Shown piece after piece: positions 11,824-28,512 of a stretch of DNA of 64,000 bases. Where the stretch lies: IMG/VR virus record IMGVR_UViG_3300045988_055634, positions 1 to 64,000 of that record. One strand, given 5' to 3'. Position 1 is the stretch's first letter; the number at the start of each line of letters is the position of its first letter. The stretch is from a virus. The translations under genes were made by a program, and so were the position numbers. Under the pieces are notes generated by a model, which saw nothing but the letters and a program-made list of their open reading frames with translations, did not search any database and was not told where the DNA came from.

Positions 11824-11885
11824 AGATACTACTAAAAGGTAAGTACCAAAGGGGTACTTATCTACACCTGTGGAGAAAATTAATT

Positions 11886-11970: not shown

Positions 11971-12119
11971 CCTTTTTGCTGAATCCTCCTAGTAATATTA
12001 ATCCAGCAAATTCCAAGTCGATGTGAGGAAGAGAGTAACTTGGACGGTAGCTAGCACTGTAGTACGCAATAGTGGGATAGAAACGGCTAGCACCCACTTT
12101 AACTTTTAAATACTAGATT

Positions 12120-12278
12120 ATGCATCAGTGTGATTATTGTTGTTGGTATTACAATGGAAATTGCGATTGTCCATATGTAATGAAGAAACAAGCGTGTGAA
12201 AACGCTTTGAAAACTAAAGAGAGAAATGAAAGACCTATTAGAAAAGTACAAAATGTTTCAAACTCCGAAACCAGCTAA
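12120..12278 (+). CDS. small Cys-rich protein (52 aa)
   Basis: MHQCDYCCWYYNGNCDCPYV...; overlaps the alternative ORF 12226..12396 in another frame, so only one is likely real. Confidence 0.3.
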   Translation: MHQCDYCCWYYNGNCDCPYVMKKQACENALKTKERNERPIRKVQNVSNSETS

Positions 12279-12396
12279 TGAGATTTCATGGAAAGACATG
12301 AAGGAATTTAACTCTTATATGAAAGAAGTAGTTCGTGATTATAAGATTAAACAGGCTAAATCAATTCAGAGCGCTAGAAACGTAATAATATCCTGA
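12226..12396 (+). CDS. small hypothetical protein (56 aa)
   Basis: MKDLLEKYKMFQTPKPANEISWKDMKEF...; composition more protein-like than the overlapping ORF. Confidence 0.35.
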   Translation: MKDLLEKYKMFQTPKPANEISWKDMKEFNSYMKEVVRDYKIKQAKSIQSARNVIIS

Positions 12397-12634
12397 CCTG
12401 GCAAGGTAAAAATCCATTCGGGGTTTAAGTTGAAGCCAGTCCCTGCGGAATCATAAAGACCTTTTCTGACACGAGAACCGATAGTCGATGAACTGAGAGA
12501 GTAGCATGGTTGCGGACTTATGCTACTAGAACATGATTCAAACAAAAAAAACTTATCTGGTGTTGTTAAGTTGTGGAATCTTAACAGTGGAAATTTATGG
12601 GTATGTCACCAATTAAAAAGAAAATCCCAAAAAT

Positions 12635-12707
12635 GGGCCGTTAGCTCAAATGGCTAGAGCGCTGGTTTTGCACACCGGAAGATAGGGTTCGAGTCCCTGC
12701 GTGTCCA
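12635..12707 (+). tRNA. tRNA-Ala(TGC) with partly mismatched acceptor stem
   Basis: G1G2G3 with G3:U70, D-arm tagctcaaatggctagagc, anticodon arm ctggt-tttgcac-accgg, T-arm tagggttcgagtccctg; base of acceptor stem has 3 mismatches as read. Confidence 0.6.
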
Positions 12708-12727
12708 CAAACTTTATTTAAAAAATT

Positions 12728-12913
12728 ATGAAAGTATATGTAGTTGTAGTAAATTATCACCCAGCTAATGCTCCTCAAAATTATGAAACTGATTGCCAAA
12801 TCTTCTTAGACAAGAAACAGGCAGAGAAGTATAAAGAGGCTAAGGAAAAAGAGTTTCCTATTAGATGGGGAGGAGAGTATAATCATTGTAAACTAATTAA
12901 AAAGCATTTGTAA
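12728..12913 (+). CDS. hypothetical protein
   Basis: 61 aa ORF. Confidence 0.4.
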   Translation: MKVYVVVVNYHPANAPQNYETDCQIFLDKKQAEKYKEAKEKEFPIRWGGEYNHCKLIKKHL

Positions 12914-12917
12914 TATC

Positions 12918-12989
12918 GCGGGATGATAGCAGAGGTAGCTAGTCAGGCTCATAACCTGAAGGTCGTCGGTTCGAATCCGAGTGGGGGAT
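12918..12989 (+). tRNA. tRNA-like element with CAT anticodon arm and no pairing acceptor stem
   Basis: D-arm tagc-agaggta-gcta, anticodon arm tcagg-ctcataa-cctga, T-arm (g)tcggttcgaatccga(g); flanking gcgggat/tggggga cannot pair. Confidence 0.4.
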
Positions 12990-13016
12990 CTTAACCATTA
13001 AATCAGATTAATTTTT

Positions 13017-13691
13017 ATGACTAGATTAGAAAAGTATTTAGTAGCAACTGCTACTGAGATTATCGAAGCGGAAACAACTGTTTCTCGCTACTTTGTCATT
13101 GGAAACGTCAAAGTTAGAGTATCAGACCATTTAAGTAAAATGAGTGATGCAGACTTACAAGTGATTATTCCATTGAACGGAGGGACTAAGTATATAGTTA
13201 CTGTTAAGGATAGTCCTGGAAAATTTCTTGTATGGAATGCAACTCAAATAAAAGACTTTATTCCTTCATTGCAGATTATTAAGGGCTTGAAGGAAGGAGT
13301 ACAACTTAAGCCAAAACCTAAAGACTCTGCAGTTCAGAAGATTCAGCTAGCATTAAATAATAGTAATACCGATGGAGGTTCGTTAACGTTCGATGGTACT
13401 ATTATCGAGTCTAGATTGAAAGAAAAGCAACTTACCTCCAAACAGCGGGAAGTTTTCAGGAGAACTAAATCTACTTGGGATATTTCTCAGATTGGAACAT
13501 TACCCAGTATGATTAAAGTAGATTTGGGATTGTCAAATGGTTCTGTAAACGAAGATGTGCAGATATTTCTAACTTGTACATCTTTAACCTACAAAGAAAT
13601 TCTGAACATTTATAAAATAATAGTTGTTGATAACCATATGGTTCCAACTATTAAACTGTTGCAAGAAGCTTATAGCTTAATTGTGCAGTAG
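13017..13691 (+). CDS. hypothetical protein
   Basis: 224 aa ORF; TAG stop followed 5 codons later by in-frame TAA. Confidence 0.5.
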   Translation: MTRLEKYLVATATEIIEAETTVSRYFVIGNVKVRVSDHLSKMSDADLQVIIPLNGGTKYIVTVKDSPGKFLVWNATQIKDFIPSLQIIKGLKEGVQLKPKPKDSAVQKIQLALNNSNTDGGSLTFDGTIIESRLKEKQLTSKQREVFRRTKSTWDISQIGTLPSMIKVDLGLSNGSVNEDVQIFLTCTSLTYKEILNIYKIIVVDNHMVPTIKLLQEAYSLIVQ

Positions 13692-13694
13692 GAT

Positions 13695-13766
13695 AGCGCC
13701 ATCATCTAATGGTTAGGATTCAGGCTTTTCACGCCTGCCATACGGGTTCGAATCCCGTTGGCGTTA
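13695..13766 (+). tRNA. tRNA-Glu(TTC)
   Basis: Acceptor agcgcca/tggcgtt, anticodon arm caggc-ttttcac-gcctg, T-arm acgggttcgaatcccgt. Confidence 0.75.
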
Positions 13767-13771
13767 CTATG

Positions 13772-13805
13772 TACCCCAGCAGCGGAAGTTGTTGGGGTAT
13801 TTTTT
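13772..13805 (+). terminator. intrinsic terminator
   Basis: Hairpin tacccca...tggggta followed by TTTTTT. Confidence 0.6.
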
Positions 13806-13823
13806 GTTTAATATAATTAATAA

Positions 13824-14144
13824 TTGATGAGAAAAACATTTGAGTTTGTAAAGGTTGGAGGAGTCTGGTTCTATTGGTGGCCAGATTATGACGGAACACC
13901 AGAGGAACTAGCAATGGTTGGTGGTGCAGATGAACTTCTTGATTCTCTAGATAATAAGTTTGTTAGATTGCAGATGGTTGACCCAGCTGCAGCTAAGATA
14001 ACGTTGTCTAAAATTGAGGAGGATGAATGTGGAGCAACTTACTTATGCAAAAGTAAGAATTACAATGACAGGGTATGGATTTGTGCTGTAACTCTATCAG
14101 TATTCGGGGAATATCCTCAAAATATTTACCTAAAAGATATGTAA
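13824..14144 (+). CDS. hypothetical protein
   Basis: 106 aa ORF. Confidence 0.45.
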   Translation: MMRKTFEFVKVGGVWFYWWPDYDGTPEELAMVGGADELLDSLDNKFVRLQMVDPAAAKITLSKIEEDECGATYLCKSKNYNDRVWICAVTLSVFGEYPQNIYLKDM

Positions 14145-14147
14145 AAA

Positions 14148-14573
14148 ATGAAAACGTTAAATGAGATTTTAGACAATTACAAAGACTATGCCGTAGTTCT
14201 CGATGACCGTTTCGGTTCTAGATTAGCAAAGTTTTTAACAGAAGAGCAGTTAGAAAAAATAGGCTTCAAGTACGATGGTGATGAGCCTTATCCAGAGCCT
14301 AAGGAATGGACTAGAGAGAATATCCTAGAGCAACTTAAGTCTGACGTGGAGTTTGGTTTTGAGAAGGCTCTAGACCAGAGAGGCATTTCAGCTAGCCTAA
14401 TGTTCTACGTGGTACTAAGGTGGAATCAAGTTCTAGAAGAGGGCTTAGAGAATTATCCTGAAGAGAATTATGCTATGTATGGGTTGCCTTTGTTTAAGGC
14501 TACTGCTGTAAAGTATGGATGGGAGAATCCTATAGGCGACGATAATGGGGACGAAGAGTTCTACAATGAGTAG
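14148..14573 (+). CDS. hypothetical acidic protein
   Basis: 141 aa ORF; TAG stop. Confidence 0.45.
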   Translation: MKTLNEILDNYKDYAVVLDDRFGSRLAKFLTEEQLEKIGFKYDGDEPYPEPKEWTRENILEQLKSDVEFGFEKALDQRGISASLMFYVVLRWNQVLEEGLENYPEENYAMYGLPLFKATAVKYGWENPIGDDNGDEEFYNE

Positions 14574-14769
14574 CGCTATGAAGGAATCTTCTATACTTAA
14601 AGCAATTTCTGACGCTATTGAAGAATACGAGGAAAATCAACAAAGACGGATAGACCTGTTAGAGAGTAAAATTCTGCTATTTGAGAGAGAAAGAGAAGCT
14701 TTTATTCGGCATTTGAGAGAAGGAAACATTCAATTATTAAAGGATTATCTAGGAATTAAAGATGAGTAA
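14545..14769 (+). CDS. hypothetical protein
   Basis: 74 aa ORF overlapping its neighbours. Confidence 0.4.
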   Translation: MGTKSSTMSSAMKESSILKAISDAIEEYEENQQRRIDLLESKILLFEREREAFIRHLREGNIQLLKDYLGIKDE

Positions 14770-15085
14770 ATACTATTTAATTAAGGAATGTAATAATATT
14801 CCTTTTATCTTAGGACAGTTCGATAGTATTGAAGAGGCTGAGGCCGCTCTTCCTTCTACAAATAAGAAGGGAGCTAAGCACTTTGTCGTTTGTTCTATAG
14901 AGCAATTAAAGTCAGCAAGGGCAGCTATATCCTACTTACAAGAAGAACTTAGAAAGAGTCGAGAGGAGGTACGGCAATGGAGGGATTTAGAACTTAAAAC
15001 AAGGCTAGATTTCTCAAACCAAATCTGTGAATTATCGAAGATAGCTAATCTAACTGTAGAGGATCTAACTAAAGTATTGTTATGA
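14762..15085 (+). CDS. hypothetical protein
   Basis: 107 aa ORF. Confidence 0.4.
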   Translation: MSKYYLIKECNNIPFILGQFDSIEEAEAALPSTNKKGAKHFVVCSIEQLKSARAAISYLQEELRKSREEVRQWRDLELKTRLDFSNQICELSKIANLTVEDLTKVLL

Positions 15086-15384
15086 TAGTAAGTTCTCCTT
15101 TTGATAAAGATTTGCTTGGACATGAGATAAGGGGTGTAAATACATCTTACTACGGACTTTCTGCATTGCAGGCTGTAATAAATCATGACGGAATCCGTCA
15201 AGATATTGCAAAATATATGTATAGAGACTGCATTGTAGATGGAGGACGAAAAGGAGTAATCATAGGATTTGAGGATAATAATCAATTCTTTGATTACTAC
15301 TATATAGTCTATGTGCCAGAGCTAAATACTACTGTGTATCAATTAGCTAATGATGCGAGATTTATTAATTCAATTGAGATATGA
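15082..15384 (+). CDS. hypothetical protein
   Basis: 100 aa ORF, ATGA overlap with upstream gene. Confidence 0.4.
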   Translation: MIVSSPFDKDLLGHEIRGVNTSYYGLSALQAVINHDGIRQDIAKYMYRDCIVDGGRKGVIIGFEDNNQFFDYYYIVYVPELNTTVYQLANDARFINSIEI

Positions 15385-15540
15385 AAGTATATTATATTTC
15401 AATTCCCACGGCATATGACGGGCAAGTCCCTATAAACTATGAGAAGATCTCTCCTCTTTTTCTAGAGAAGAAAGACGCTATAGAATGGGCGGTAACTCAA
15501 AATTACTGGGATATTAGATTAATAGAAGAAGAAGTTTTAT
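15381..15540 (+). CDS. small hypothetical protein (52 aa)
   Basis: ATGA overlap at both ends with flanking genes (MKVYYISIPTAYDGQ...). Confidence 0.3.
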
Positions 15541-16033
15541 GAAAAAGAAAGTTTTAATTATCCTTATGATTAGTATTGTATTCGGATTTGCAACTGGTTA
15601 TTCTTTGCATCATCTGATACATTTCAATCAGAAACAGGAGGAAATGGTATTGCTGCCAGAGCATCCATTCTACTTATTGGATGAAGTAAACGAAGAAGTA
15701 TTGTACAATACTTTGAAGCATTACGATTTTCCAAATCCAGCAATTATAACAGCTCAGGCTGTTCTGGAATCTGGCAATTTTAAATCGAAACTTTGTAAGG
15801 ACAATAACAATCTGTTCGGATTGTATAATTCCAGAACAATGTCTTACTTCAAGTTCGATAGTTGGATAAGCTGTGTGTTAGCTTATAAACAATTTATCCT
15901 TAGTAAGTATAACCCAGAAGAGGATTACTACAAATTCCTAGACAGAATTGGCTACGCTGAGGATTCCTTGTATGAAAGTAAAGTTAAGGAATTGGAATTA
16001 GATATACTTAATAAATATGGAAGCTCAAATTGA
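15539..16033 (+). CDS. peptidoglycan hydrolase with glucosaminidase domain, N-terminal membrane anchor
   Basis: ITAQAVLESGNFKSKLCKDNNNLFGLY matches the mannosyl-glycoprotein endo-beta-N-acetylglucosaminidase/FlgJ-type motif; N-terminal TM. Confidence 0.55.
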   Translation: MKKKVLIILMISIVFGFATGYSLHHLIHFNQKQEEMVLLPEHPFYLLDEVNEEVLYNTLKHYDFPNPAIITAQAVLESGNFKSKLCKDNNNLFGLYNSRTMSYFKFDSWISCVLAYKQFILSKYNPEEDYYKFLDRIGYAEDSLYESKVKELELDILNKYGSSN

Positions 16034-16283
16034 AGAAGCTATCAAATTTAGAAAGAAAGCTAATTTCAAGATATTAACTAGATTAAGTCAAATCATTGAC
16101 CAATATCCTTATCTAAGATTTCACCAAATTCTTATGATATATAAGGTTAGTGAACTGGGAGTGGATAAGTTCAATGAGGAGAGTGTAGAAACTTTGAAGA
16201 AGCTAGAGCATGAAATGGTGGAAAAAGGAATTGGTAAGATTACTAGTAATAGTTCTGATGGGAACAATACTATTAGTAACTAG
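16017..16283 (+). CDS. hypothetical protein
   Basis: 88 aa ORF; TAG stop. Confidence 0.4.
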   Translation: MEAQIEEAIKFRKKANFKILTRLSQIIDQYPYLRFHQILMIYKVSELGVDKFNEESVETLKKLEHEMVEKGIGKITSNSSDGNNTISN

Positions 16284-16364
16284 GGAAGTAATGGGTTTTG
16301 AGACCGCAGTTATGACTGGTCTAACTATTATATTATGCAATCAAATATTTAACGAATAAAGATT

Positions 16365-18380
16365 ATGAATTTTAAAGATTTCAAGAAAGATGTAGAGTCT
16401 GCTTTCAATGCTATGATTGCAGATAATTTATTTGTAGTTAATGTAGACAAAGACCTTTTGTGGATGAGTTATCTCCTCTCCTTTGAGGACGAAACAATTC
16501 GACAAGATCACAATTGTAATGCTTGTAAGTCTTTCATACGTCACTATGGTAAGGTAGTCGCTATAGACCCTCAAACCTACAAGGTGAAAACCTTCTGGGA
16601 TGATGTTCACACTCCTGGCTATGAAAAGACCGCATCTGATTTAGCTAAGCTCGTTAAGGAAGCTGGAATAGGAGATATATTCATTCAGGATGTTAATGAG
16701 TTTCACGGTTGTGACCATAATGTGCAACTTCTTCCTGATGGAACTACTAGAACTTGGACTCACTTGTACGTGACTATTCCTAACAAGTTTAAATTCAACA
16801 AGAGAGTACATCATTTCGATTCTGCCGCAGGTTATCGCGGAGATGTTAGAGCTAGAGCTGGTGTCTTTGAACGCTCTCTTTCCGAGCTTAAACTAAGTGC
16901 GGTAGAAACCGTAATTGAGTTGATAGAGGATAATAATCTCTATCGCGGAGAGGAGTTCCTAAAGACTCTGCAAGAGTTCAGAAGAACTATGCTTGAGGCC
17001 GATAATCTCTCACCAGAGGTTCGCACTAACTATTGTTGGTTTAACTTCAAATCTCCAATAGCTAAGATTAGAAATACAGCTATGGGAACTCTACTGATTG
17101 ACTTAAGTAATGGTGTGGACCTGGAAAGAGCTGTTAAGTCTTATGAGAACATTATGGCTCCATCTAACTATAAGAGACCTACTGCTCTTATTACTAAGAA
17201 ACAAATTGAGGCTGCTCAGAAGAAGGTTGAAGAACTTGGGTTAACTGATGCCCTTCCTCGCCGTCATGCTCGTGTAGAAGATATTTCTGTAAACGACGTT
17301 CTGTTCGTAAATAGAGACACTCGTGCACGTATGAAAGGAGGTATATTTGACTCTTTAAAAGAGACCTCAACGGTTAATCCTAAAGAGTATACCAAAGCTA
17401 CTGAAATTTCAATTTCGGAGTTTGTAACTAATGTATTGCCACACTCTAAGGATGTGCAAATTCTTGTTGAGAATAAGCATATTCCTAATTTTGTTACCCT
17501 AACTGCTCCAGAGAACCCTGATGCAGGTCAGCTGTTCAAATGGAAGAATAACTTCGCTTGGGTGTATAATGGCTCTATGGCGGATTCATTCAAGGAGAAA
17601 GTAAAAGCAGCAGGTGGTAACGTAAATGGATTCCTAAGATGTTCTCTACACTGGTTTAACTATGATGACCTTGACCTCCATGTAACAGAACCTGGTGGTA
17701 ATGAAATCTATTACGGGCATAAGAGAGGATTAACTGGTGGTACACTAGATGTAGATATGAACGCTGGTTCTGGTAAAACCAGAGATGCAGTCGAGAATAT
17801 TATCTGGACTGACCAATCTAAACTCAGAGCAGGTCGATATGAAGTGCGTGTGCATAACTTCTGCAAAAGAGAACATATAGACTTTGGATTCGAGGTAGAA
17901 ATCGAAATCAATGGAGAACTTCATAAGTTCAACTATGATAAGATGGTGTCAGACAGAGAATATATTGCGGTAGCAATTATCAAGGTAGATTCTATTGGTA
18001 ATATAACCCTAAGTCCGGTAATTGCCGAAGGTGCAACTTCATACAAGTCTATGAACGAGTGGGGCATTGATACTATGCGTTTCCAAACTGTTTCTTGCAT
18101 CATGTATTCTCCAAATTATTGGGAAGGTAATGAAATAGGAAACAAGCACCTATTCTTCATGATTGATGGATGTAAAAATCCTGACCCAGTTCGAGGATTC
18201 TTCAATGAATATCTGAGACCCGATCTCGAAAAAGATCATAAGAGAGTATTCGAAGCTATTGGCTCTAGAGCTAAAGCAGAATACAACGATAACCAGTTGA
18301 GTGGACTAGGATTCTCTAGTACGTCTCACGACGAGGTTGTAGTTAAAGTTGATAATAAACCATTTAAAATTAAATTCTAA
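16365..18380 (+). CDS. large hypothetical protein (671 aa) with N-terminal Cys cluster
   Basis: Uninterrupted 2 kb ORF; HNCNACKSF motif; no family recognised by eye. Confidence 0.5.
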   Translation: MNFKDFKKDVESAFNAMIADNLFVVNVDKDLLWMSYLLSFEDETIRQDHNCNACKSFIRHYGKVVAIDPQTYKVKTFWDDVHTPGYEKTASDLAKLVKEAGIGDIFIQDVNEFHGCDHNVQLLPDGTTRTWTHLYVTIPNKFKFNKRVHHFDSAAGYRGDVRARAGVFERSLSELKLSAVETVIELIEDNNLYRGEEFLKTLQEFRRTMLEADNLSPEVRTNYCWFNFKSPIAKIRNTAMGTLLIDLSNGVDLERAVKSYENIMAPSNYKRPTALITKKQIEAAQKKVEELGLTDALPRRHARVEDISVNDVLFVNRDTRARMKGGIFDSLKETSTVNPKEYTKATEISISEFVTNVLPHSKDVQILVENKHIPNFVTLTAPENPDAGQLFKWKNNFAWVYNGSMADSFKEKVKAAGGNVNGFLRCSLHWFNYDDLDLHVTEPGGNEIYYGHKRGLTGGTLDVDMNAGSGKTRDAVENIIWTDQSKLRAGRYEVRVHNFCKREHIDFGFEVEIEINGELHKFNYDKMVSDREYIAVAIIKVDSIGNITLSPVIAEGATSYKSMNEWGIDTMRFQTVSCIMYSPNYWEGNEIGNKHLFFMIDGCKNPDPVRGFFNEYLRPDLEKDHKRVFEAIGSRAKAEYNDNQLSGLGFSSTSHDEVVVKVDNKPFKIKF

Positions 18381-18382
18381 TT

Positions 18383-18757
18383 ATGTACAAACAAGCGTCT
18401 AAAATGAAGTTGCGCTTTGCAACTAGTAAAGGTAATTTGAGTGTGGAAGATTTATGGGACTTAAGTCTGCCTGCATTGGACAGACTGGCAGTGTCCTATG
18501 ACGAAGAATTAGCCAAGAGTCCTAGAAAATCTTTCATAACTAATGATACTCCTAGCAATAGCGAACTGGAGTTAAAGTTCAACATTGTGAAAGATGTTAT
18601 CACTGATAAGCTGAAAGACAAGGCCGCTAGAGAAGCAGCTAAAGATAAGGCAGCTGAGAAGGCACGCCTGACTGAACTGCTGGCTAAGAAACAGTCTGAG
18701 AAAATGGAAAGTATGTCCGAAGATGAAATCAGACAACGACTTGCAGAACTCGGATAA
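18383..18757 (+). CDS. hypothetical protein
   Basis: 124 aa ORF with lysine-rich coiled-coil C-terminus. Confidence 0.4.
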   Translation: MYKQASKMKLRFATSKGNLSVEDLWDLSLPALDRLAVSYDEELAKSPRKSFITNDTPSNSELELKFNIVKDVITDKLKDKAAREAAKDKAAEKARLTELLAKKQSEKMESMSEDEIRQRLAELG

Positions 18758-19037
18758 TTGTGTCGTATTGAAAACAGTTAGTCCACAAATCTTAGATAAA
18801 CTAAGGGAAAGTGGATTGACTGTTTGTACGTGTTGTGAATTTCCTGGTACAGCCTGGTTAGTATTCAGACCAAATATGCCTACATCGGATATTCACGGTG
18901 AGGGGTATGATTTCGAAGAGATAGGACTTTTTGGAACAGAGGCTGTTCTCAAATACTTCGAAGCTAACACTCCGAATTATGTAGATTGCGGAACTGATGT
19001 CGATAAATTTATTAACATTTGTTTGCAGTTTAAATAA
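18723..19037 (+). CDS. hypothetical protein
   Basis: 104 aa ORF. Confidence 0.4.
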   Translation: MKSDNDLQNSDNCVVLKTVSPQILDKLRESGLTVCTCCEFPGTAWLVFRPNMPTSDIHGEGYDFEEIGLFGTEAVLKYFEANTPNYVDCGTDVDKFINICLQFK

Positions 19038-19123
19038 GTTAACGGTTTTTAACTTTGAATTTAACACTTGTACTGTTATTATAGTAAGTTGATTAGCGGT
19101 ACGTGAGTATAGCTAATCACTAT

Positions 19124-19209
19124 GCCCGAATGGTGGAATTGGTAGACACGTCAGATTTAAGCTCTGATGCCCAGTAATGGGCGTGTGGGTTCGAGTCCCA
19201 CTTCGGGTA
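19124..19209 (+). tRNA. tRNA-Leu(TAA), type II
   Basis: Acceptor gcccgaa/ttcgggt, D-loop aattggtagac, anticodon arm tcaga-tttaagc-tctga, long variable arm, T-arm gtgggttcgagtcccac. Confidence 0.8.
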
Positions 19210-19227
19210 CTAATTTAATATCAATAA

Positions 19228-19400: not shown

Positions 19401-20312
19401 ATGAACAGTGTATTTTTTGGAAATGAAGGGTTGACTTCTACGTCAGCAAACTTCTATGCGAACATCGCACAAGAAATGATTCAAGCAGCACAGGAACGCT
19501 TGAATAATGTGAAATTCTTTCAAGTATCTGTAGCCTCTATCGGCGGAGGAGAAAAGCAGTTAATGACAGTAGGACAAAAGTCCCTTGACTTTATAAAAGA
19601 TGATTTGGAAAAGGTCGCTGCCATGAATAGTTTTTGTGCTTGGGTACGAGAAGCTATTAAAGAGAAAGAAGGAATGATTGGCAAAGTATCTGCTACTATG
19701 CTTGATGATTGGGCAGAAAGTCAGGGAATAGGACTGCCAGAGCAGCCTAAGTATCCAGAAGCTCTACCTTCTCCGACTGAAGAGACTATCATAAAGTCGT
19801 GGGATATTAACAAGAGAAATAAATTCCTAAGATTAGAGGCGTTTGCTTCTACCTATGGAAAGTATATTCATCCAAAAGGAGCCTTTAGTAAAGCACGAAA
19901 AGAAGTTCATGCAGCTGAGAATTGTCCTATCTATAAGGAAGGCTCTGGAAGAGATTTAATTCTCTACTACCAAGACCCTACCATCGAAGTAGAAAAAGTG
20001 GACAATATGTTCATGTCTCTTCAAGACACCTATCGTTCTTACGAGAAGGAGTTAAATGCTCTTAAAGCTGAGCTTAAGGAGGAGGTTAATAAACTTTCTA
20101 ACACTCAAGAACAAGAGTATCGTGAGAAAATGGCTGAATTTAAAGCAAAATACGACAAATATACCTCCGAATTAGGAGAGTTGAGAAGTCGTTTCAATAG
20201 TTGGAAAACTTCTGAAATGGAACGTATTTCCAAACTAAAAATCGCTTTGCCTAAGAATCTTTTAGATATTTTCGAAGAGATTAGGAGACAAGGCGACTCT
20301 TCCTCTAAGTAA
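19401..20312 (+). CDS. hypothetical protein with C-terminal coiled coil
   Basis: 303 aa ORF. Confidence 0.5.
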   Translation: MNSVFFGNEGLTSTSANFYANIAQEMIQAAQERLNNVKFFQVSVASIGGGEKQLMTVGQKSLDFIKDDLEKVAAMNSFCAWVREAIKEKEGMIGKVSATMLDDWAESQGIGLPEQPKYPEALPSPTEETIIKSWDINKRNKFLRLEAFASTYGKYIHPKGAFSKARKEVHAAENCPIYKEGSGRDLILYYQDPTIEVEKVDNMFMSLQDTYRSYEKELNALKAELKEEVNKLSNTQEQEYREKMAEFKAKYDKYTSELGELRSRFNSWKTSEMERISKLKIALPKNLLDIFEEIRRQGDSSSK

Positions 20313-20746
20313 TTAGAGGACTTCCGTAGGAAGCTAACATAACATACTTAACAGGAATAATTATGAACAGTATATTCTTAAATCCGCATGGATTTAATCT
20401 TTATTCGCTGGCTACACAAAAATTTACAACCTACTCTCTAATTGAGAGTCTTTGTCTTAGTCTTTGTTAGTGTAGCTAGGTCTTTGACTATGGCTTCATC
20501 TTTGCCTGCGCGTTAGCTTCCTACATAGCTCGTCAACCACGTGTTGAAGGAGTTACGGAATCCCTTCGGGATTCTAGCCTTTTGCTTCAGTTACAAGTAA
20601 TCTTTAAACTTGGTGACTATTATCCCAAATTCTCAACAAGATGAAGAGGGAGGTTGACCAACCTAATAATGGTACAAGCTCTTCGGAGTGATAGGAGTGG
20701 GGAAAGTATCTGGTGAAGCACAGATACTGGAACCACTCTTTTTTTT
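20313..20746 (+). ncRNA. candidate structured non-coding RNA ending in an intrinsic terminator
   Basis: ~430 nt with no convincing ORF; 13-bp long-range complement gtaggaagctaac (20326-38) / gttagcttcctac (20512-24); UUCG-type hairpins at 20548-64 and 20668-79; terminator hairpin plus T8 at 20695-20746. Confidence 0.35.
20695..20746 (+). terminator. intrinsic terminator: nested hairpin gagtgg...agtatctg/cagatact...ccactc followed by TTTTTTTT
   Basis: Perfect 8-bp inner stem and 6-bp outer stem, then an 8-T run. Confidence 0.65.
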
Positions 20747-20786
20747 GATAGATAAAATGATTATTAACTAATTTAAATTAAGAAAA

Positions 20787-20960
20787 ATGAAGAAAGTACT
20801 ATTGCTTTTCGGAATGGTTGCACTGATGTCTGCTTGTGCAGGTAATACAAAGACTCAGGCTCCAGAAAACGATTCTATCGCAATCGTTAAAGAAGTTGCT
20901 GACACAATGAGTGTAGACACTCTAGGTGTGGATAGTCTTGTAATTGATAGTATTCAGTAA
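20787..20960 (+). CDS. small lipoprotein (57 aa)
   Basis: MKKVLLLFGMVALMSAC signal with lipobox-like MSAC; ATG follows a purine-rich stretch. Confidence 0.4.
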   Translation: MKKVLLLFGMVALMSACAGNTKTQAPENDSIAIVKEVADTMSVDTLGVDSLVIDSIQ

Positions 20961-21285
20961 TATGGATTTTATCGCAACCAGAGTCAATGAACTCTTAAGT
21001 AGGGTATCTCCTATTAAGCGATGGCTTATTTCTGATGTTGCGAATGAATACTATCGAGCAGGATATCAAGATGGTCAGAAACTAGTCTACAGAAATGTGT
21101 TAAAGGGAAGCGCATTGAGAGAGTTTATCGAAATTCTAAATCATTGCGGAATTAAACTTAGTTACAACTTACGTAAGGGTGGGCTACTGGTCAGTGTAAG
21201 AACTGATAAGTTGTCCAACTTACAGAATCTTGTTAATTGTTACAAAAATGAGCAAAACAAAGAGAACAGTCCTGACAAGGGATGA
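20944..21285 (+). CDS. hypothetical protein
   Basis: 113 aa ORF. Confidence 0.4.
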   Translation: MIVFSNMDFIATRVNELLSRVSPIKRWLISDVANEYYRAGYQDGQKLVYRNVLKGSALREFIEILNHCGIKLSYNLRKGGLLVSVRTDKLSNLQNLVNCYKNEQNKENSPDKG

Positions 21286-21628: not shown

Positions 21629-22016
21629 ATTTAATCAGATTTTTTGTGAGGATTTGAAAGATGATTTCGAGGAAGCTGGTAGGCATGAGAGAAATTTCGA
21701 GTTAGACGAGTTTATTCAGAAGGATTTAAGTAGAGCATTTGCGTTTGGTTATTGTCATTTAGACTGGATAAAGGAGAAAATGTGGTTTCCTGTTCCTATT
21801 AGGAAGGCTTTACGGCATTTAGGGGACGACCTAGAAGATTTTGCTCCTCAGCTTAAATGGCTTAACGAAAAATATGGTGCTATAGGAAAGAGAGTTAGAA
21901 TTGTTGATTATGCAAACTATATTTTAGATAATATATTTTGTGACAATCAAGACGATTTGCTAAAGATAGCAATATTACTCGGAACTAACATGAGAGTAAA
22001 TACTGCTGATGAGTAG
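21621..22016 (+). CDS. hypothetical protein
   Basis: 131 aa ORF. Confidence 0.4.
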   Translation: MIEFNQIFCEDLKDDFEEAGRHERNFELDEFIQKDLSRAFAFGYCHLDWIKEKMWFPVPIRKALRHLGDDLEDFAPQLKWLNEKYGAIGKRVRIVDYANYILDNIFCDNQDDLLKIAILLGTNMRVNTADE

Positions 22017-22452
22017 GCTAGAAGTGTTCACTGATGGAGCTTTTAGCTCATCTAGAGACACAGGAGGAGTAGGAGTTGTATTCGTAATTGATGGGGAAAA
22101 AGCCTATGAATTTAGTAAGATGATTCCTAATACTACTAATAATAAATGTGAGTTGTTAGCAGTAATTTATGCTCTAAATGCAGTAAGTCGTAAAATCGAA
22201 TCTCTGACTATTTACTCAGATTCTCAGTACGTCATAGGATGTGCTACTAAAGGATGGAAAAGAAAGAAGAATATAGAGTTATGGAATTTATACGACAAGG
22301 TCTTAAATAAGGCAAAGCAATTTTGTCCTAATATAGATTTTTGTTGGGTGAAAGGACATACTTCAAGTTCAGACTTCTTTTCTCAGATGAATAATCTCGC
22401 AGATAAATTAGCAGTTGAAGCAAGTCAGGAATATGAAACTAAGAAAGAATAA
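22009..22452 (+). CDS. rnhA: ribonuclease HI
   Basis: FTDGA...GGVGVV, ELLAVIYAL, YSDSQYV, WVKGHTSS...NLADKLA match the RNase H catalytic motifs. Confidence 0.8.
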   Translation: MSRLEVFTDGAFSSSRDTGGVGVVFVIDGEKAYEFSKMIPNTTNNKCELLAVIYALNAVSRKIESLTIYSDSQYVIGCATKGWKRKKNIELWNLYDKVLNKAKQFCPNIDFCWVKGHTSSSDFFSQMNNLADKLAVEASQEYETKKE

Positions 22453-24958: not shown

Positions 24959-25769
24959 GATAATAGGGCAAGACAAGTTAATTAAGGAAGTTAATAGAAT
25001 ATTTCAGGTATTTGTAAATAGTAATTGCAAGATAAGACCGCACTTTATTCTTACAGGTGAGAGCGGGTCTGGTAAGAGCTTTACTATTAAACAGTTATGT
25101 GATATGAATGAACTTAACTTTCTAGAAGTTAATGCAGCTCAAATAACTAAAGAGGGTATTTCTGGAAATAGTTTAAGCAAAATTCTATCTCCACTTGTTA
25201 ACTATAGTCACACACCTATTGTAGTCTTCGTAGACGAGTTTGATAAACTTTTCATCAACGGAAACACTAATAGCCAACTGGCTAATGAATCTACTGCCAG
25301 TGTACAGAACGAGTTTCTCAAACTTTTAGAGTCTGATACTACTAGTGTTTTTGGCGATTATGGGAAGTACATATCAGTCCCTATTGATAATGTACTATTT
25401 GTGTTTGCTGGAGCATTCAATAATGAGCCTCACATTACATTAGATAGACTAAGAGACTTTGGAGTTAAAACAGAGTTTCTTGGAAGAGTAGGATTAATCT
25501 ACAATACTAAACCTCTCACTCTAGAGGATTTGTATTCTATCTTGGAGTGTTCAGACTTGTTGCAGAATTATCTTGACTTATTCTTTAATGTAAATAGAGA
25601 ACAAGTCATTAGTGATTTGAAAGGGTATCTCGAAAGTTCTTTTCGCAATAATACTCTTGGAGCAAGAACAATTAATACTCTTATTCACCAATACTTTATC
25701 AAAGGTGGAAAACTCGAAACTGAAGAAGTAAAAGAAATAACTTTTAACAAAAAATTAGAATGGAAATAA
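24945..25769 (+). CDS. AAA family ATPase
   Basis: Walker A GESGSGKS, Walker B VVFVDEFDK. Confidence 0.6.
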   Translation: MTMSKIIGQDKLIKEVNRIFQVFVNSNCKIRPHFILTGESGSGKSFTIKQLCDMNELNFLEVNAAQITKEGISGNSLSKILSPLVNYSHTPIVVFVDEFDKLFINGNTNSQLANESTASVQNEFLKLLESDTTSVFGDYGKYISVPIDNVLFVFAGAFNNEPHITLDRLRDFGVKTEFLGRVGLIYNTKPLTLEDLYSILECSDLLQNYLDLFFNVNREQVISDLKGYLESSFRNNTLGARTINTLIHQYFIKGGKLETEEVKEITFNKKLEWK

Positions 25770-27310
25770 TTAATGCTACAGATGGTTACAAGTTGGGCCA
25801 TCACAGAATGTACCCCGAAGGTACTGAACAAGTTTATAGTAACTGGACTCCTAGAAGTAATAAATACTTCCCAGAAGCAACCGAAGGTTCAGTAGTATTT
25901 GGTATTCAATACCTAATCAAAGAATATCTCATTAAACAGTTTGAGAAAAACTTCTTTAATCTACCAAAGAAGGAAGCTGTGGAGATGTTCTATCGTAGAG
26001 TAAACAACTTTGTTGGTATTGAATCCGTTGGGTACAGACATATTGAAGCTTTATATGACCTTGGGTATCTACCAATTCGCATAAAGGCTCTTCCTGAAGG
26101 TTCTGTGTGCCCTATTCGGGTTCCCATGATGACCATTACAAATACTCTACCCGAGTTCTTTTGGTTAACTAACTACTTAGAGACTATTATCAGCTGTACC
26201 TTGTGGATGCCATGCACATCTGCTACTAGAGCTAGGCTTTATAAGAAAGAGCTACATCGTCATGCTTGCAAGACTGGTTTTCCAACAGATGTAAATCTTG
26301 GTTTTTGTTGTCATGATTTCTCAATGCGAGGTATGGCGGGAATGGAAGCCGCAATTATATCTGGTATGGCGCATATGACTTCTTTTGTGGGAAGTGAAAC
26401 TATTCCAGCTATTGCTGCTTTGGAAGAATATTATGGAGCTAATTCAGACGAGGAATTGATTGCTGCTACAGTTCCAGCAACAGAACACTCTGTAATGTGT
26501 GCTGGAGGGGAGGAAGATGAGCTGGGCACTTTCAAACGTCTAATTAATGATTTGTATCCTTCTGGGTTTGTTTCTATTGTATCTGATACTTGGGATTTCT
26601 GGAATGTAATTGAAAATTTCTTGCCCAAGCTGAAGAAAGACATTATGGCTCGTGATGGTAGAGTAGTAATCCGTCCTGATAGTGGAGACCCAGTAGATAT
26701 AATCTGCGGGTTGAGAACTAATCCTCACTTCAATACCAGAATGAAAGAAGGTAAGTATTATTGCTGCTATGCTCCGTTTAACGACGATGCAGAGTATGTT
26801 GAAGTGTCCGAAGGTCAATATTATGGGGCATATTATATGCTTGGTAAAATCTTCGGATGGAATACTACTTCAAAGGATTACCGTTATCCTAGCACTAAGG
26901 TTGGTCTGCTTTATGGAGATTCTATTACTCTGGAACGTCAAAAGCAAATCTACTTGAGATTAGAAAACGCTCATATGGCGGCTTGTAATCTCGTTCTGGG
27001 AGTAGGTTCATATTCCTATCAGTATGCAAGTAGAGATAGTCTTGGGTTTGCTATTAAGGCTACTGCTTGCGTAGTAAATGGCGAATTGAAAGAAATCTTC
27101 AAACATCCTAAAACTGATGATGGTACTAAGAACTCTTTGAAAGGTTTGATTGCTGTCTATAAAGGTCTGGATGGGAAGTATACTGCTACCGACCAGGTCT
27201 CAATCGAGGAGGAAAAAGAGGGATGCTTAGAGACTGTCTTTGAAGATGGTATCTTGAAGAAAGAATATTCTCTTGAAGAAATCAGACAAAGAATTGACCA
27301 TGGACTTTAA
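25760..27310 (+). CDS. nadV: nicotinamide phosphoribosyltransferase (NadV/NAMPT)
   Basis: 516 aa; N-terminal NATDGYKLGHHRMYPEGT and overall length and architecture typical of NAMPT. Confidence 0.8.
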   Translation: MEIINATDGYKLGHHRMYPEGTEQVYSNWTPRSNKYFPEATEGSVVFGIQYLIKEYLIKQFEKNFFNLPKKEAVEMFYRRVNNFVGIESVGYRHIEALYDLGYLPIRIKALPEGSVCPIRVPMMTITNTLPEFFWLTNYLETIISCTLWMPCTSATRARLYKKELHRHACKTGFPTDVNLGFCCHDFSMRGMAGMEAAIISGMAHMTSFVGSETIPAIAALEEYYGANSDEELIAATVPATEHSVMCAGGEEDELGTFKRLINDLYPSGFVSIVSDTWDFWNVIENFLPKLKKDIMARDGRVVIRPDSGDPVDIICGLRTNPHFNTRMKEGKYYCCYAPFNDDAEYVEVSEGQYYGAYYMLGKIFGWNTTSKDYRYPSTKVGLLYGDSITLERQKQIYLRLENAHMAACNLVLGVGSYSYQYASRDSLGFAIKATACVVNGELKEIFKHPKTDDGTKNSLKGLIAVYKGLDGKYTATDQVSIEEEKEGCLETVFEDGILKKEYSLEEIRQRIDHGL

Positions 27311-27737
27311 TCATCCTTTTGGGAAAGAAGCTTGCAAGAAACGACTATTAGAAGAGTATCATAAATACGGAAAGCTAATAGTCGCTTTCGATTTTGATAA
27401 TACTATTTTCGATTACCATAATACTGGCGGAGATTATAGTTGCGTTATAGAACTACTTAAAGAATGCTCACTTCTAGGTTTTGAAATGATTTTATTCACC
27501 ACTGATGAAGATGATTATAAAATTATGGCAAAGCAGACAATTTGTATGCGATTAGGAATAGCAAATATTACTTCTAATACTTTATCTGCTCCAAACATTA
27601 GTAGTTCTATATTCTCTAAATCTAAGAAACCTTATTACAATATCCTCCTAGATGATAGGGCAGGTCTGGAAGAAAGTTATGAAATCTTAAAATATGTAGT
27701 AGATGAAATTAAACTTAATCAACAAGGAAATCAGTGA
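27300..27737 (+). CDS. HAD-superfamily hydrolase
   Basis: DxDxT motif IVAFDFDNTIFDY; located between NadV and the Prs-like gene. Confidence 0.45.
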   Translation: MDFNHPFGKEACKKRLLEEYHKYGKLIVAFDFDNTIFDYHNTGGDYSCVIELLKECSLLGFEMILFTTDEDDYKIMAKQTICMRLGIANITSNTLSAPNISSSIFSKSKKPYYNILLDDRAGLEESYEILKYVVDEIKLNQQGNQ

Positions 27738-28512
27738 AATTAAGTACGATGTTACTAGATTTCCTGATGGAGAGCCTCAGTTTTTCCTTACTGAGGAATT
27801 AAACAGAAAGGAATCTATTGATGTCATTTGTAGAATATCTAATACTGAGGATTTATTCCTCTTAGTGCAAGTAGGAGATATTTTAGATAGACAAGAAGTA
27901 GAATGGGATTTACACATTACTTATTTAATGTCTATGCGTATGGATAGAGTAATGAGTTTTAATCGTCCATTCTCCTTGAAAGTAGTATGTAATATGTTAA
28001 ATAGCTTAGGCTATAGAAACATATATGTTCTTGAGGCACATTCTAGTAGAACTTTTCATCTTCTTGGTGACAGATGTTTACCTTGGGAATTTGGACACCA
28101 CTCTTGGATTCCAGCCCAAAGTAATATCGTGTTCCCAGACCATGGGGCGAAGGACAGATATGGAAGTAACTATTCTCACTATGGTTATTTAGTCTTCAAA
28201 AAGGAAAGAAATCTAGAGACTGGAAGAATTGAGTCCTTTGAAATAGAGGAGTCTAAGAATTGCTACTATTCTACATTTGTGTTCATTGATGACTTGTGTG
28301 ATGCCGGAGGAACTTTCCTAGGAGAGCTTAAGGTTCTCAAAGAGAGATATCCAAATAGCAAGTTTATCATAATCGTATGTCACGCAGTTAATGATAAAGG
28401 TCTGATTAATATGTGTAATAATTTTGACCAGGTTATTGTATCTAATTCTCATAGGGATATTAATTATCGTCCCAGCAACGAGAACTTAACTGTAATAGAC
28501 GTTTGTAAATAA
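27703..28512 (+). CDS. ribose-phosphate pyrophosphokinase-like protein (Prs family)
   Basis: RFPDGE N-terminal motif and PRPP-binding loop VFIDDLCDAGGTF. Confidence 0.6.
   Translation: MKLNLINKEISEIKYDVTRFPDGEPQFFLTEELNRKESIDVICRISNTEDLFLLVQVGDILDRQEVEWDLHITYLMSMRMDRVMSFNRPFSLKVVCNMLNSLGYRNIYVLEAHSSRTFHLLGDRCLPWEFGHHSWIPAQSNIVFPDHGAKDRYGSNYSHYGYLVFKKERNLETGRIESFEIEESKNCYYSTFVFIDDLCDAGGTFLGELKVLKERYPNSKFIIIVCHAVNDKGLINMCNNFDQVIVSNSHRDINYRPSNENLTVIDVCK

What the first reader, a model, noticed from the sequence alone, without database searches (positions are those of the whole stretch)
20313..20746. 430-nt ORF-free region with the architecture of a structured RNA: 13-bp long-range helix, two UUCG hairpins, intrinsic terminator
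Immediately after the stop of gene 19401-20312 there is no credible ORF for 470 bp. gtaggaagctaac (20326-20338) is perfectly complementary to gttagcttcctac (20512-20524), 185 nt away. A competing local hairpin cttcc-gta-ggaag overlaps the 5' partner (alternative-structure potential, riboswitch/attenuator-like). Two hairpins with C(UUCG)G-type loops occur (ggaatccc-ttc(g)-gggattc at 20548-64; gctc-ttcg-gagt at 20668-79). The region ends in a strong terminator (nested hairpin plus T8, 20695-20746). This pattern suggests a phage-encoded sRNA, ribozyme or intron remnant, or a cis-regulatory leader, rather than spacer DNA.
Basis: seen in the sequence. Interest (0 to 1): 0.6.

Follow-up and report, generated by a model that had tools for sequence, protein, structure and literature searches.

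The report
New structured RNA in gut phages
The roughly 450 bases after a phage gene encode a conserved, intricately folded RNA matching no described RNA family; its core holds a row of six-base repeats that match the preferred binding site of bacterial cold-shock proteins, so it may be a viral decoy or scaffold for them.

Summary
Window 20301-20746 (+) is a conserved structured RNA, not spacer DNA and not a decayed ORF. Homologues lie directly after the same 303-aa gene ("X") in more than 100 phage contigs of about 185 kb, mostly from human gut samples. The 13-bp long-range helix is real: 10 of its 13 pairs show compensatory changes. Across nine helices, 96.7-99% of cells pair, against 29-47% in register-shifted controls. 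G.U pairs outnumber A.C 130 to 10, which fixes the + strand. New findings: a 6-7 bp pseudoknot joins 20583-88 to the terminator-hairpin loop. An almost invariant 3' domain (20581-20748) is present. A hairpin spans X's stop codon. The core holds 5-8 tandem hexamers, G-N-C-U-U-N, in strict 6-nt register. A shorter RNA (about 250 nt) with the same core follows distant X homologues (35-40% identity). No Rfam 15 family matches. The commonest repeat plus the next G, GUCUUUG, equals the published consensus site of the cold-shock protein CspB. My best explanation is a multivalent platform for a cold-shock-domain-type RNA-binding protein, either a sponge or a scaffold. That function is inferred, not shown. 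The riboswitch, intron and ribozyme readings are unsupported.

The parts
19401..20312 (+). Gene X (303 aa). It is helical with a coiled coil and has no known function. The RNA always lies directly 3' of it.
   Evidence: ORF. 469 homologues, all unnamed. AF2 model with pLDDT 88 gives only coiled-coil fold matches. The RNA lies downstream of X in every locus examined.
20301..20320 (+). P0: hairpin TCCTCT / AGAGGA that encloses the stop codon TAA (20310-12) of gene X.
   Evidence: The arms change together in relatives: TCTTCT/AGAAGA, ACCTCG/CGAGGT, TAAGAAG/CTTCTTA, ACCTCT/AGAGGT. It is weak or absent in L113, L114, L172 and L173.
20326..20338 (+). P1 5' arm (GUAGGAAGCUAAC) of the 13-bp long-range helix.
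   Evidence: In one search, 10 of 13 pairs have compensatory changes and 99.3% of cells pair.
20380..20395 (+). Variable hairpin AAAUCC-GCAU-GGAUUU inside the P1 junction.
   Evidence: Relatives carry a hairpin of different sequence here (for example GGCGU/ACGCC, GGCGGGG/CCCCGC); L173 has none.
20408..20417 (+). P2 5' arm (CUGGCUACAC).
   Evidence: In one search, 7 of 10 pairs are compensatory and 98.6% of cells pair.
20433..20449 (+). P3 hairpin ACUCUC-UAAUU-GAGAGU.
   Evidence: C-G changes to U-A in the L017 clade. It is variable or expanded in divergent members.
20448..20466 (+). Hexamer block a: GUCUUU GUCUUA GUCUUU G.
   Evidence: Copy number varies in steps of 6 nt among near relatives.
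20470..20479 (+). P2 3' arm (GUGUAGCUAG).
20480..20509 (+). Hexamer block b: GUCUUU GACUAU GGCUUC AUCUUU GCCUGC, five units in register.
   Evidence: strict 6-nt register in 21 type-A sequences and more than 30 type-B sequences. Position 1 is G in 87-96%, position 3 is C or U in 98%, and positions 4-5 are U in 78-91%.
20512..20524 (+). P1 3' arm (GUUAGCUUCCUAC).
20526..20555 (+). Px: peripheral hairpin UAGCUC-GUCAAC...GUUGA-AGGAGUUA.
   Evidence: U-A changes to C-G. Absent in L114-L122, L169-L171, L173, L174, L176 and L177.
20557..20575 (+). Py: peripheral hairpin GGAAUCCC-UUC-GGGAUUC(U).
   Evidence: several compensatory pairs. Absent in many members. Replaced by a self-folding insert of about 270 nt in L034, L086 and L120.
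20583..20588 (+). Pseudoknot 5' strand, UGCUUC.
   Evidence: It pairs with GAAGCA at 20715-20720. It is 7 bp (GUGCUUC/GAAGCAC) in most clades. L118 carries a matching extra U and extra A (GUGCUUUC/GAAAGCAC).
20589..20618 (+). Pa hairpin AGUUACAAGU - AAUCUUUAA - ACUUGGUGACU.
   Evidence: helix 2 is 96.5% paired, and two pairs are compensatory (A-U changing to C-G, G-C and U-A).
20619..20653 (+). Almost invariant core: AUUAU-CCC-AAAUUCUCAACAAGAUGAAGA-GGG-AGG. It contains Pb (CCC 20624-26 with GGG 20648-50). It also contains AAGAUGAAGA (20638-47), which is complementary to two hexamers.
   Evidence: For Pb, one U-A compensation occurs in L173 and one mismatch in L086. The complementarity to UCUUUGUCUU is read directly from the sequence and is untested.
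20654..20677 (+). Pc hairpin UUGACCA - ACCUAAUAA - UGGUACAA.
   Evidence: helix 4, with two pairs each compensatory in 10 sequences. The loop is invariant and has unpaired probability 0.99.
20678..20689 (+). Pd hairpin GCUC-UUCG-GAGU.
   Evidence: helix 5, 3 of 4 pairs compensatory. The loop varies among stable tetraloops (UUCG, GCAA, GAAA, GUAA, GUUA).
20694..20746 (+). Pe/Pf nested terminal hairpin. Outer stem GGAGUGG/CCACUCU, inner stem GUAUCU/AGAUAC. The loop carries the pseudoknot 3' strand GAAGCA (20715-20720). A U8 run follows at 20739-46, making an intrinsic terminator.
   Evidence: Helices 6 and 7 are 100% and 97.8% paired, each with 4 compensatory pairs.
22009..22452 (+). RNase HI gene. 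It is context only, not shown to be part of the element.
   Evidence: PHROG 531 at E = 3e-37. Present within 3 kb downstream in 39 type-A loci and in 0 of 46 type-B loci.

Best explanation
Window 20301-20746 (+) encodes a member of an undescribed family of phage structured RNAs. It is made as the 3' extension of the gene-X transcript or processed from it, and it ends at its own intrinsic terminator.

Shown here:
- It has two domains.
- The 5' domain (20326-20524) is a clamp. The long-range helix P1 and the inner helix P2 close a junction. That junction holds 5-8 tandem hexamers, G-N-C-U-U-N, in strict 6-nt register, with no conserved pairing partner.
- The 3' domain (20581-20748) is a compact, almost invariant fold of four hairpins. 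Its first bases form a pseudoknot with the loop of the terminator hairpin.

Inferred mechanism:
- Each unit, GUCUUU followed by G, is one binding site for a cold-shock-domain (OB-fold) single-strand RNA-binding protein.
- The array would then load several such proteins side by side.
- That would either titrate the host's cold-shock protein (an RNA chaperone and antiterminator) or recruit it as a scaffold or protector.
- The pseudoknotted 3' domain would stabilise the 3' end, or act as a second, still unknown effector module.
- Its AAGAUGAAGA segment could mask two hexamers.
For: Structured RNA:
- Homologues follow gene X in 39 IMG/VR loci and 80 metagenome loci.
- The RNA is 80-83% identical in nucleotides where X is 72-78% identical in amino acids. 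The 3' block is 92% identical where X is 59%.
- P1 and P2 are 99% paired, with 17 of 23 pairs compensatory.
- The 3' domain with its pseudoknot is 96.7% paired, with 17 of 44 pairs compensatory. Slid controls give 29-47%.
- G.U 130 against A.C 10 fixes the + strand.
- Type-B RNAs after distant X homologues keep P1, a hairpin and the hexamer array. 22 of 34 predicted pairs are compensatory.

Hexamer array:
- The register is strict and the consensus is G-N-Y-U-U-N.
- Insertions and deletions come in multiples of 6 nt.
- Three of the eight + strand GTCTTTK heptamers in the 64-kb window fall within 39 nt.
- RNAalifold leaves the array unpaired.

Cold-shock-domain link (from the literature):
- The B. 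subtilis CspB microarray consensus is 5'-GTCTTTG/T-3', with a cytosine pocket at position 3 (PMC1904285).
- CspB has six base subsites and has been co-crystallised with GUCUUUA (PMC7825780).
- The shared E. coli CspC/CspE CLIP motif is GXUCUG (PMC9426608).
- Bacteroides thetaiotaomicron has one canonical cold-shock protein, BT1884 (PMC13370968).
- The window's genes lack Shine-Dalgarno motifs (8 of 76), as in Bacteroidota.
Against: - No binding, expression or end-mapping data exist. The cold-shock-domain link rests on a motif match found after the fact.
- Cold-shock domains are described as only weakly sequence-selective, and they bind RNA about 10-fold less tightly than DNA (PMC7825780).
- Position 2 of the hexamer is variable, whereas CspB prefers T there.
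- The host is not identified.
- No cold-shock-domain gene lies in the 64-kb window. The partner could equally be gene X's product or another protein.
- Predicted unpaired probability of the array is only moderate: 0.36-0.61 against 0.37-0.41 overall.
- The almost invariant 3' domain is not explained by this model, and type-B RNAs lack it.
Confidence: 0.4

Rival explanations
1. A purely cis-acting 3' UTR element of gene X. The stop-codon hairpin, the structured body and the pseudoknotted terminator protect the X mRNA from 3' exonucleases, or couple X translation termination to RNA folding. There is no trans-acting partner, and the hexamers serve as spacers or as RNase or ribosome signals.
For: The RNA is always immediately 3' of X on the same strand, in both type A and type B. 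P0 includes the last codons and the stop codon of X and covaries. P1 begins only 14 nt after the stop codon. No separate promoter could be established.
Against: A stabiliser does not need a 95-nt block that is invariant while the flanking protein drops to 59% identity. Nor does it need a strictly phased hexamer array conserved across clades that share only 35-40% X identity. This reading is not exclusive of the best explanation, because a 3'UTR-borne RNA can still be a protein sponge.
Confidence: 0.25
2. The RNA forms a ribonucleoprotein with the product of gene X itself. X oligomerises through its coiled coil along the 6-nt repeats, either as autoregulation or as a structural RNP.
For: X and the RNA co-occur strictly over a wide evolutionary range. 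X has an 80-residue helix typical of oligomerising proteins. No other function is known for X.
Confidence: 0.15
3. A replication-origin transcript or primer RNA, like ColE1 RNA II. The structured RNA would form an R-loop and be processed by the nearby phage RNase HI to prime DNA synthesis.
For: An RNase HI gene lies 0-1.3 kb downstream in 39 type-A loci. A helicase and a clamp-loader-like gene lie further downstream.
Against: GC skew shows no switch across the window. The RNA ends in a strong intrinsic terminator. Type-B RNAs have no RNase H within 3 kb (0 of 46). No iterons or AT-rich unwinding element were seen.
Confidence: 0.07
4. A ribozyme, an intron remnant, or a riboswitch/attenuator leader for the downstream lipoprotein gene. 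These are the reader's other options.
For: High structural complexity, a pseudoknot and invariant unpaired nucleotides are compatible with catalysis or ligand binding. A terminator sits 40 nt before the next gene.
Against: No Rfam ribozyme, intron or riboswitch model matches at E up to 10. No split host gene flanks the element. The downstream gene differs among members (a lipoprotein, RNase H or other small ORFs) while the upstream gene is constant. The alternative hairpin is not conserved.
Confidence: 0.05
5. A decayed or small protein-coding gene. The hexamers would encode a (Val/Ala/Asp)-(Phe/Leu) repeat peptide on the + strand, or Lys-Asp repeats on the - strand.
For: The frame GNC-UUN is open through the array. 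Similar DNA arrays elsewhere in IMG/VR are nearly all coding (118 of 120).
Against: No conserved start codon or ORF covers the array. The most variable position would be the second codon position, and the most conserved a third position. Flanking helices covary with G.U pairs on the + strand. Insertions and deletions around the array are not multiples of three.
Confidence: 0.02

Closest known systems
CsrB/RsmZ-type protein-sponge RNAs
   Same: A structured non-coding RNA that displays many copies of a short single-stranded protein-binding motif on a scaffold of helices. Copy number varies between relatives.
   Different: The motif is a phased linear G-N-C-U-U-N array, not GGA in hairpin loops. 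CsrA is absent from Bacteroides (PMC13370968). The RNA is phage-encoded and sits in a 3' UTR position. Protein binding is not shown here.
Cold-shock-domain consensus sites (Bs-CspB GTCTTTG/T; GUCUUUA co-crystal 3pf4; CspC/E CLIP motif GXUCUG)
   Same: The commonest repeat unit plus the next G is exactly GUCUUUG. The unit conserves C at position 3, and its length of 6-7 nt equals the domain's set of subsites.
   Different: The known sites are single sites defined in vitro or by CLIP. I found no description of a natural tandem array, or of any viral RNA carrying one, in the papers searched.
GOLLD and ROOL large ornate RNAs
   Same: Large structured RNAs of unknown function that are often phage-borne and lie near tRNA genes (that placement is from my own knowledge; the paper listed, PMC12286853, was not opened). 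Here the RNA lies at the end of a block of 15 or more tRNA genes. It has a conserved 3' part, a variable 5' part and lineage-specific inserted domains.
   Different: There is no sequence or structure match to their Rfam models. This RNA is smaller (250-700 nt). It is strictly linked to one protein gene and carries a hexamer array. Oligomerisation was not tested.
Phage T4 stable RNAs C and D in the tRNA region (from memory, not checked here)
   Same: Small stable phage RNAs of unknown function encoded beside the phage tRNA cluster.
   Different: They are much shorter, and no homology was tested or is expected. This is only a positional analogy.
ColE1 RNA II primer and RNase H
   Same: A structured RNA of 400-550 nt with an RNase H enzyme in the picture.
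   Different: This RNA ends at a terminator. There is no GC-skew or origin signature, and RNase H is absent next to type-B members.

Membership tests
Any Rfam 15 family (ribozymes, riboswitches, introns, tmRNA, RNase P, 6S, GOLLD, ROOL, HEARO and others) | A match to the family's covariance model at or near its gathering score. | tested here: not met
   cmscan at E up to 10 over 19900-21200 returned only two chance snoRNA hits. The gathering-score scan of the whole window and three loci found only tRNAs. Seven divergent loci at E up to 1 gave nothing in the RNA.
tmRNA | A tRNA-like domain formed by the 5' and 3' ends, plus a tag reading frame. | tested here: not met
   ARAGORN finds no tmRNA in the window or in L034. 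The 3' end is a terminator hairpin followed by a U-run.
Riboswitch or 5' leader attenuator | Lies 5' of the regulated gene and stays associated with that gene across genomes. | tested here: not met
   The upstream gene X is constant. The downstream gene varies: a lipoprotein, RNase H or small ORFs.
Riboswitch or 5' leader attenuator | Conserved mutually exclusive alternative helices. | tested here: not met
   The CTTCC/GGAAG hairpin that overlaps P1 occurs only in the window's near relatives and in L114 (ACTTC/GAAGT), and in G.U-weakened form in some other clades. It has no counterpart in L113 or L115.
Intrinsic (Rho-independent) terminator | A G+C-containing stem-loop immediately followed by a U-run on the transcribed strand. 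| tested here: met
   The nested hairpin 20694-20739 is followed by U8 at 20739-46. The stems covary and the U-run is conserved.
Protein-sponge RNA (CsrB-like kind) | Multiple copies of a short conserved motif in single-stranded context. | tested here: met
   There are 5-8 phased G-N-C-U-U-N units. They are not in any covarying helix. Their predicted unpaired probability is moderate.
Protein-sponge RNA (CsrB-like kind) | Demonstrated high-affinity binding and titration of the cognate protein. | not testable with these tools
   This needs EMSA, ITC or CLIP with the host cold-shock protein or with X.
Cold-shock-domain binding site | A pyrimidine-rich heptamer matching GTCTTTG/T, with C at position 3. 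| tested here: met
   The modal unit is GUCUUU followed by G. Position 3 is C in 72-88%, and positions 4-5 are U in 78-91%. This is compared with PMC1904285. Position 2 is more variable than in the published consensus.
GOLLD/ROOL-like ornate phage RNAs | Homology to their conserved cores. | tested here: not met
   No Rfam hit.
GOLLD/ROOL-like ornate phage RNAs | Homo-oligomeric cage assembly. | not testable with these tools
   This would need native gels or cryo-EM.
Retron or DRT-type template RNA | An adjacent reverse transcriptase gene. | tested here: not met
   Pfam and PHROG scans found no reverse transcriptase among the neighbouring ORFs that were scanned. The RVT_3 hits in relatives fall on the RNase H-fold protein only.

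The most novel reading that the evidence does not exclude
This is the first viral decoy or scaffold RNA for cold-shock-domain proteins. A phage of gut Bacteroidota would use a helix-clamped tandem array of consensus cold-shock-protein sites to capture the host's single cold-shock protein (an RNA chaperone and antiterminator). A separate pseudoknotted 3' module, almost invariant in sequence, would gate access to the array or carry a second activity.
Probability: 0.25. Interest if true: 0.85.

Novelty: new variant of a known kind. Interest (0 to 1): 0.72.

Why it matters
Large structured RNAs with strong covariation and no assigned family are rare. They have repeatedly led to new biology. This one occurs in a widespread group of human-gut phages of about 185 kb: single 90%-identity clusters of gene X hold more than 500 member sequences.

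It has a clear two-domain architecture with a pseudoknot, so it is immediately open to probing and cryo-EM. The hexamer array gives a concrete hypothesis that a simple binding assay can test.

If confirmed, it would be the first RNA sponge for cold-shock-domain proteins. It would also open a new route of host takeover in Bacteroidota, a phylum that lacks Hfq and CsrA and where RNA-binding-protein biology is only starting to be mapped (PMC13370968).

Even if the cold-shock link is wrong, the family deserves an Rfam entry and experimental follow-up.

Tried and rejected
- Rfam scans at permissive thresholds on the window and on divergent members found nothing.
- ARAGORN found no tmRNA and no tRNA in the region or in the L034 insert.
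- I considered an attP site or a copy of a host gene as the reason for the invariant block. A 21-mer from it occurs in only 3 contigs among 185,579 species genomes. All three look like phage-derived contigs binned into MAGs (inferred from size, 30-186 kb, and the nhmmer match).
- Three exact-pattern scans of IMG/VR found only the same 44 or so contigs.
- Origin of replication: no GC-skew switch.
- A scan for similar hexamer arrays across IMG/VR gave 118 coding repeats among 120 hits, so it was uninformative.
- The window holds no cold-shock-domain gene by tblastn.
- The host could not be inferred from the conserved 671-aa neighbour, because its homologues occur in phages of many phyla.
- The 3'-domain model gave weak second hits (E about 0.01) in L017, L100 and L035. 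Inspection showed them to be spurious.
- The RRM protein RbpB as partner is disfavoured. Its tested motif is GUAGGAUA, and a C/U-rich motif was not bound.
- Pairing of CUUCAUCUU (20494-502) with AAGAUGAAG (20638-46) has mixed support: one compensation in the L017 clade, but mismatches in L031 and L034 and no counterpart in L115/L116 (read). It remains an untested option.

Full report
**1. The observation**

The region was read directly. Gene 19401-20312 ends with TAA at 20310-12, and the next credible gene is a 57-aa lipoprotein-like ORF starting at 20787. Between them there are only three ORFs of 25-38 aa.

The arms 20326-38 and 20512-24 are perfectly complementary over 13 nt, with 173 nt between them. 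The local hairpin CTTCC-GTA-GGAAG (20321-33) and the nested terminal hairpin plus T8 (20694-20746) are present.

The two tetraloop hairpins exist, but about 10 nt downstream of the stated positions. They lie at 20557-75 and 20678-89.

The + strand folds with z = -4.2, and the - strand with z = -4.8. Thermodynamics alone therefore does not choose the strand.

**2. Conservation**

The window belongs to a group of phage genomes of about 185 kb, mostly from human gut samples. The closest record is MT836666 at 99.6% identity, and there are many IMG/VR contigs.

The non-coding stretch is 80-83% identical in nucleotides in clades where the flanking protein X is 72-78% identical in amino acids. In the L034 clade X is 59% identical, yet the 3' part (20583-20745) is 92% identical. 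About 95 nt are invariant in all twelve first representatives.

A search with an alignment of X in metagenome contigs gave 80 more loci. nhmmer finds the RNA after X in every locus where X is at least 49% identical. These divergent copies made covariation testable.

**3. Structure: the 5' domain**

I used a plain MAFFT alignment of 21 distinct sequences, which was not fitted to any structure. Register-shifted controls give 29-47%.

Of the 23 pairs, 17 show compensatory double changes, and 0 of 500 shuffles reach this. P1 is almost completely rewritten in some members:
- GUAGGAAGCUAAC / GUUAGCUUCCUAC in the window
- GUAGGAAGUCGGC / GCCGACUUCCUAC
- GUAAGAAACCAGC / GCUGGUUUCUUAC
- AUAGAAAGCCAA / UUGGCUUUCUAU

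(the last is shown for the 12 positions that pair; the 13th is mismatched in L173).

A further hairpin, P0 (20301-20320), encloses X's stop codon. Its arms change together in most clades. The element therefore starts inside the coding region.

**4. Structure: the 3' domain**

A covariance model of 20581-20748 finds one copy after X in every type-A locus searched, and nothing convincing elsewhere.

On the resulting alignment of 23 distinct sequences, the seven helices pair in 96.7% of cells, against 38-46% in slid controls. Of the 44 pairs, 17 are compensatory. This alignment was fitted to the model, so it leans towards the structure, but the size of the effect is far beyond that bias.

The first bases of the domain, (G)UGCUUC at 20583-88, are complementary to GAAGCA(C) in the loop of the terminator's inner hairpin (20715-20). 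One member (L118) has an extra U on one side and an extra A on the other.

They covary where present and are missing in many members. In L034, L086 and L120 the Py hairpin is replaced by a 270-nt insert that folds on its own with z = -4.3.

Over all helices, G.U pairs outnumber A.C by 130 to 10. Together with the U-run, this assigns the RNA to the + strand.

**5. The core motif**

Between P3 and the P2 3' arm, and again between P2 and the P1 3' arm, lie tandem hexamers. In the window they read GUCUUU GUCUUA GUCUUU and GUCUUU GACUAU GGCUUC AUCUUU GCCUGC.

The register is strictly kept across all sequences:
- position 1 is G in 87-96%
- position 2 is variable
- position 3 is a pyrimidine in 98% (C in 72-88%)
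- positions 4 and 5 are U in 78-91%
- position 6 is mostly U

Close relatives differ by insertions or deletions of 6 or 12 nt inside the array. RNAalifold assigns the array no conserved partner.

**6. A wider family**

Downstream of X homologues that are only 35-40% identical (46 loci), the 3' domain is absent. There is instead a shorter RNA, which I call type B. It has a 5' hairpin with a conserved UCUCAAUGG loop, a long-range helix, a hairpin ending in ...CCGG, then 5-7 contiguous G-N-C-U-U-N hexamers, then a second hairpin. Of its 34 predicted pairs, 22 show compensatory changes.

The shared and presumably ancestral unit is gene X plus a helix-clamped hexamer array.

**7. What it is not**

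- No Rfam 15 model matches any variant, and there is no tRNA or tmRNA.
- The invariant block is not a copy of a host gene.
- The region is not a 5' leader of the downstream gene, because that gene varies.
- Nothing marks an origin of replication. RNase H lies downstream only in type-A loci: 39 loci, against 0 of 46 type-B loci.
- A peptide reading of the array is contradicted by the pattern of variable positions and by the lack of a conserved ORF.
- Gene X gives no clue to function.

**8. Most likely mechanism**

The modal unit with the following G, GUCUUUG, is identical to the consensus site found for B. subtilis CspB by microarray, 5'-GTCTTTG/T-3'. That study reported a strong preference for C at position 3, explained by a cytosine pocket (PMC1904285).

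Cold-shock domains have six base subsites, and CspB has been crystallised with GUCUUUA (PMC7825780). The CLIP motif shared by E. coli CspC and CspE is GXUCUG (PMC9426608).

The window's genes almost never have Shine-Dalgarno motifs (8 of 76), as expected for a Bacteroidota host. Bacteroides thetaiotaomicron has one canonical cold-shock protein, a CspC/E homologue (PMC13370968). The abundant RRM protein RbpB prefers a purine-containing motif and did not bind a C/U-rich one.

I therefore propose that the array is a multivalent landing pad for a cold-shock-domain-type protein. P1 and P2 would hold it in an accessible loop. The RNA would act as a sponge or scaffold.

This step is inference from a motif match. 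Cold-shock domains are only weakly selective, no binding data exist, and X itself or another protein could be the partner. The role of the almost invariant 3' domain is unexplained. It may stabilise the 3' end through the pseudoknot. Its AAGAUGAAGA (20638-47) is complementary to UCUUUGUCUU, with eight Watson-Crick and two G.U pairs, so it could mask two hexamers. Invariance prevents a covariation test of that pairing.

**9. Novelty and verdict**

The feature is real and conserved, and it matches no RNA family in Rfam 15. As a kind, it is nearest to protein-sponge RNAs and to the large 'ornate' phage RNAs of unknown function, but it is a member of neither.

- Confidence that it is a functional structured RNA: above 0.95.
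- Confidence in the full best explanation (a transcript tied to X whose array is a platform for a cold-shock-domain-type protein): 0.4.
- Probability of the more specific novel case (a decoy that captures the host's own cold-shock protein, gated by the 3' module): about 0.25.

Noticed in passing
window 1038-19210: A dense block of phage tRNA genes, all on the + strand. ARAGORN finds 15, and Rfam adds candidates at 12635-12707 and 12926-12981. The block ends with tRNA-Leu(UAA) at 19124-19210, just upstream of gene X. The order tRNA-Leu(UAA), gene X, RNA is kept in L034, where ARAGORN typed the tRNA. In L017, L031, L115 and L118 Rfam finds a tRNA of unassigned identity at the matching position.
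   Followed up: partly
L001 (MT836666), relative to window 20031-20252 and 19198-19209: This 99%-identical relative lacks 222 nt in frame inside the coiled-coil part of gene X. It also carries about 725 extra bases next to the tRNA-Leu gene. The RNA itself is unchanged (99.8%).
   Followed up: partly
L034 5175-5450 (also L086 and L120): A structured insertion of about 270 nt replaces hairpin Py of the RNA. It contains a T-loop-like hairpin, UAGG-UUUGAAU-CCUA. ARAGORN and Rfam do not call it a tRNA.
   Followed up: partly
window 20363-20379 vs 19401-19417: The small ORF inside the RNA starts ATGAACAGTATATTCTT, close to the start of gene X (ATGAACAGTGTATTTTT). The similarity is confined to the window's own clade and may be chance or a small duplication.
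   Followed up: no
window 20843-20858 vs 20446-20467: A 12-14-nt stretch inside the downstream lipoprotein ORF (TAATACAAAGACTCAG) is complementary to the hexamer block (92-93%). This could be chance or an RNA-RNA contact.
   Followed up: no
window 25760-28509: NAD-salvage genes: nicotinamide phosphoribosyltransferase (25760-27307) and ribose-phosphate pyrophosphokinase (27703-28509). These are auxiliary metabolic genes of the phage.
   Followed up: no
window, all ORFs of 100 aa or more on the + strand: Only 8 of 76 ORFs have a Shine-Dalgarno-like 4-mer upstream, and the leaders are A/U-rich. This suggests a Bacteroidota-type host. All large ORFs but one in the 64 kb are on the + strand, and GC skew is uniformly positive.
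   Followed up: partly
window 16365-18377: This 671-aa protein (phrog_1735, DUF8224) has about 43% identical homologues in many unrelated large phages, including phiCbK-like Caulobacter phages and Serratia, Klebsiella and Salmonella phages. All are annotated as hypothetical.
   Followed up: no
window 20618-20623 vs 20664-20668: The invariant Pc loop (ACCUAAUAA) contains UAAUA, which is complementary to UAUUA in the invariant linker after Pa. This may be a second pseudoknot. It cannot be tested by covariation because both sides never vary.
   Followed up: no
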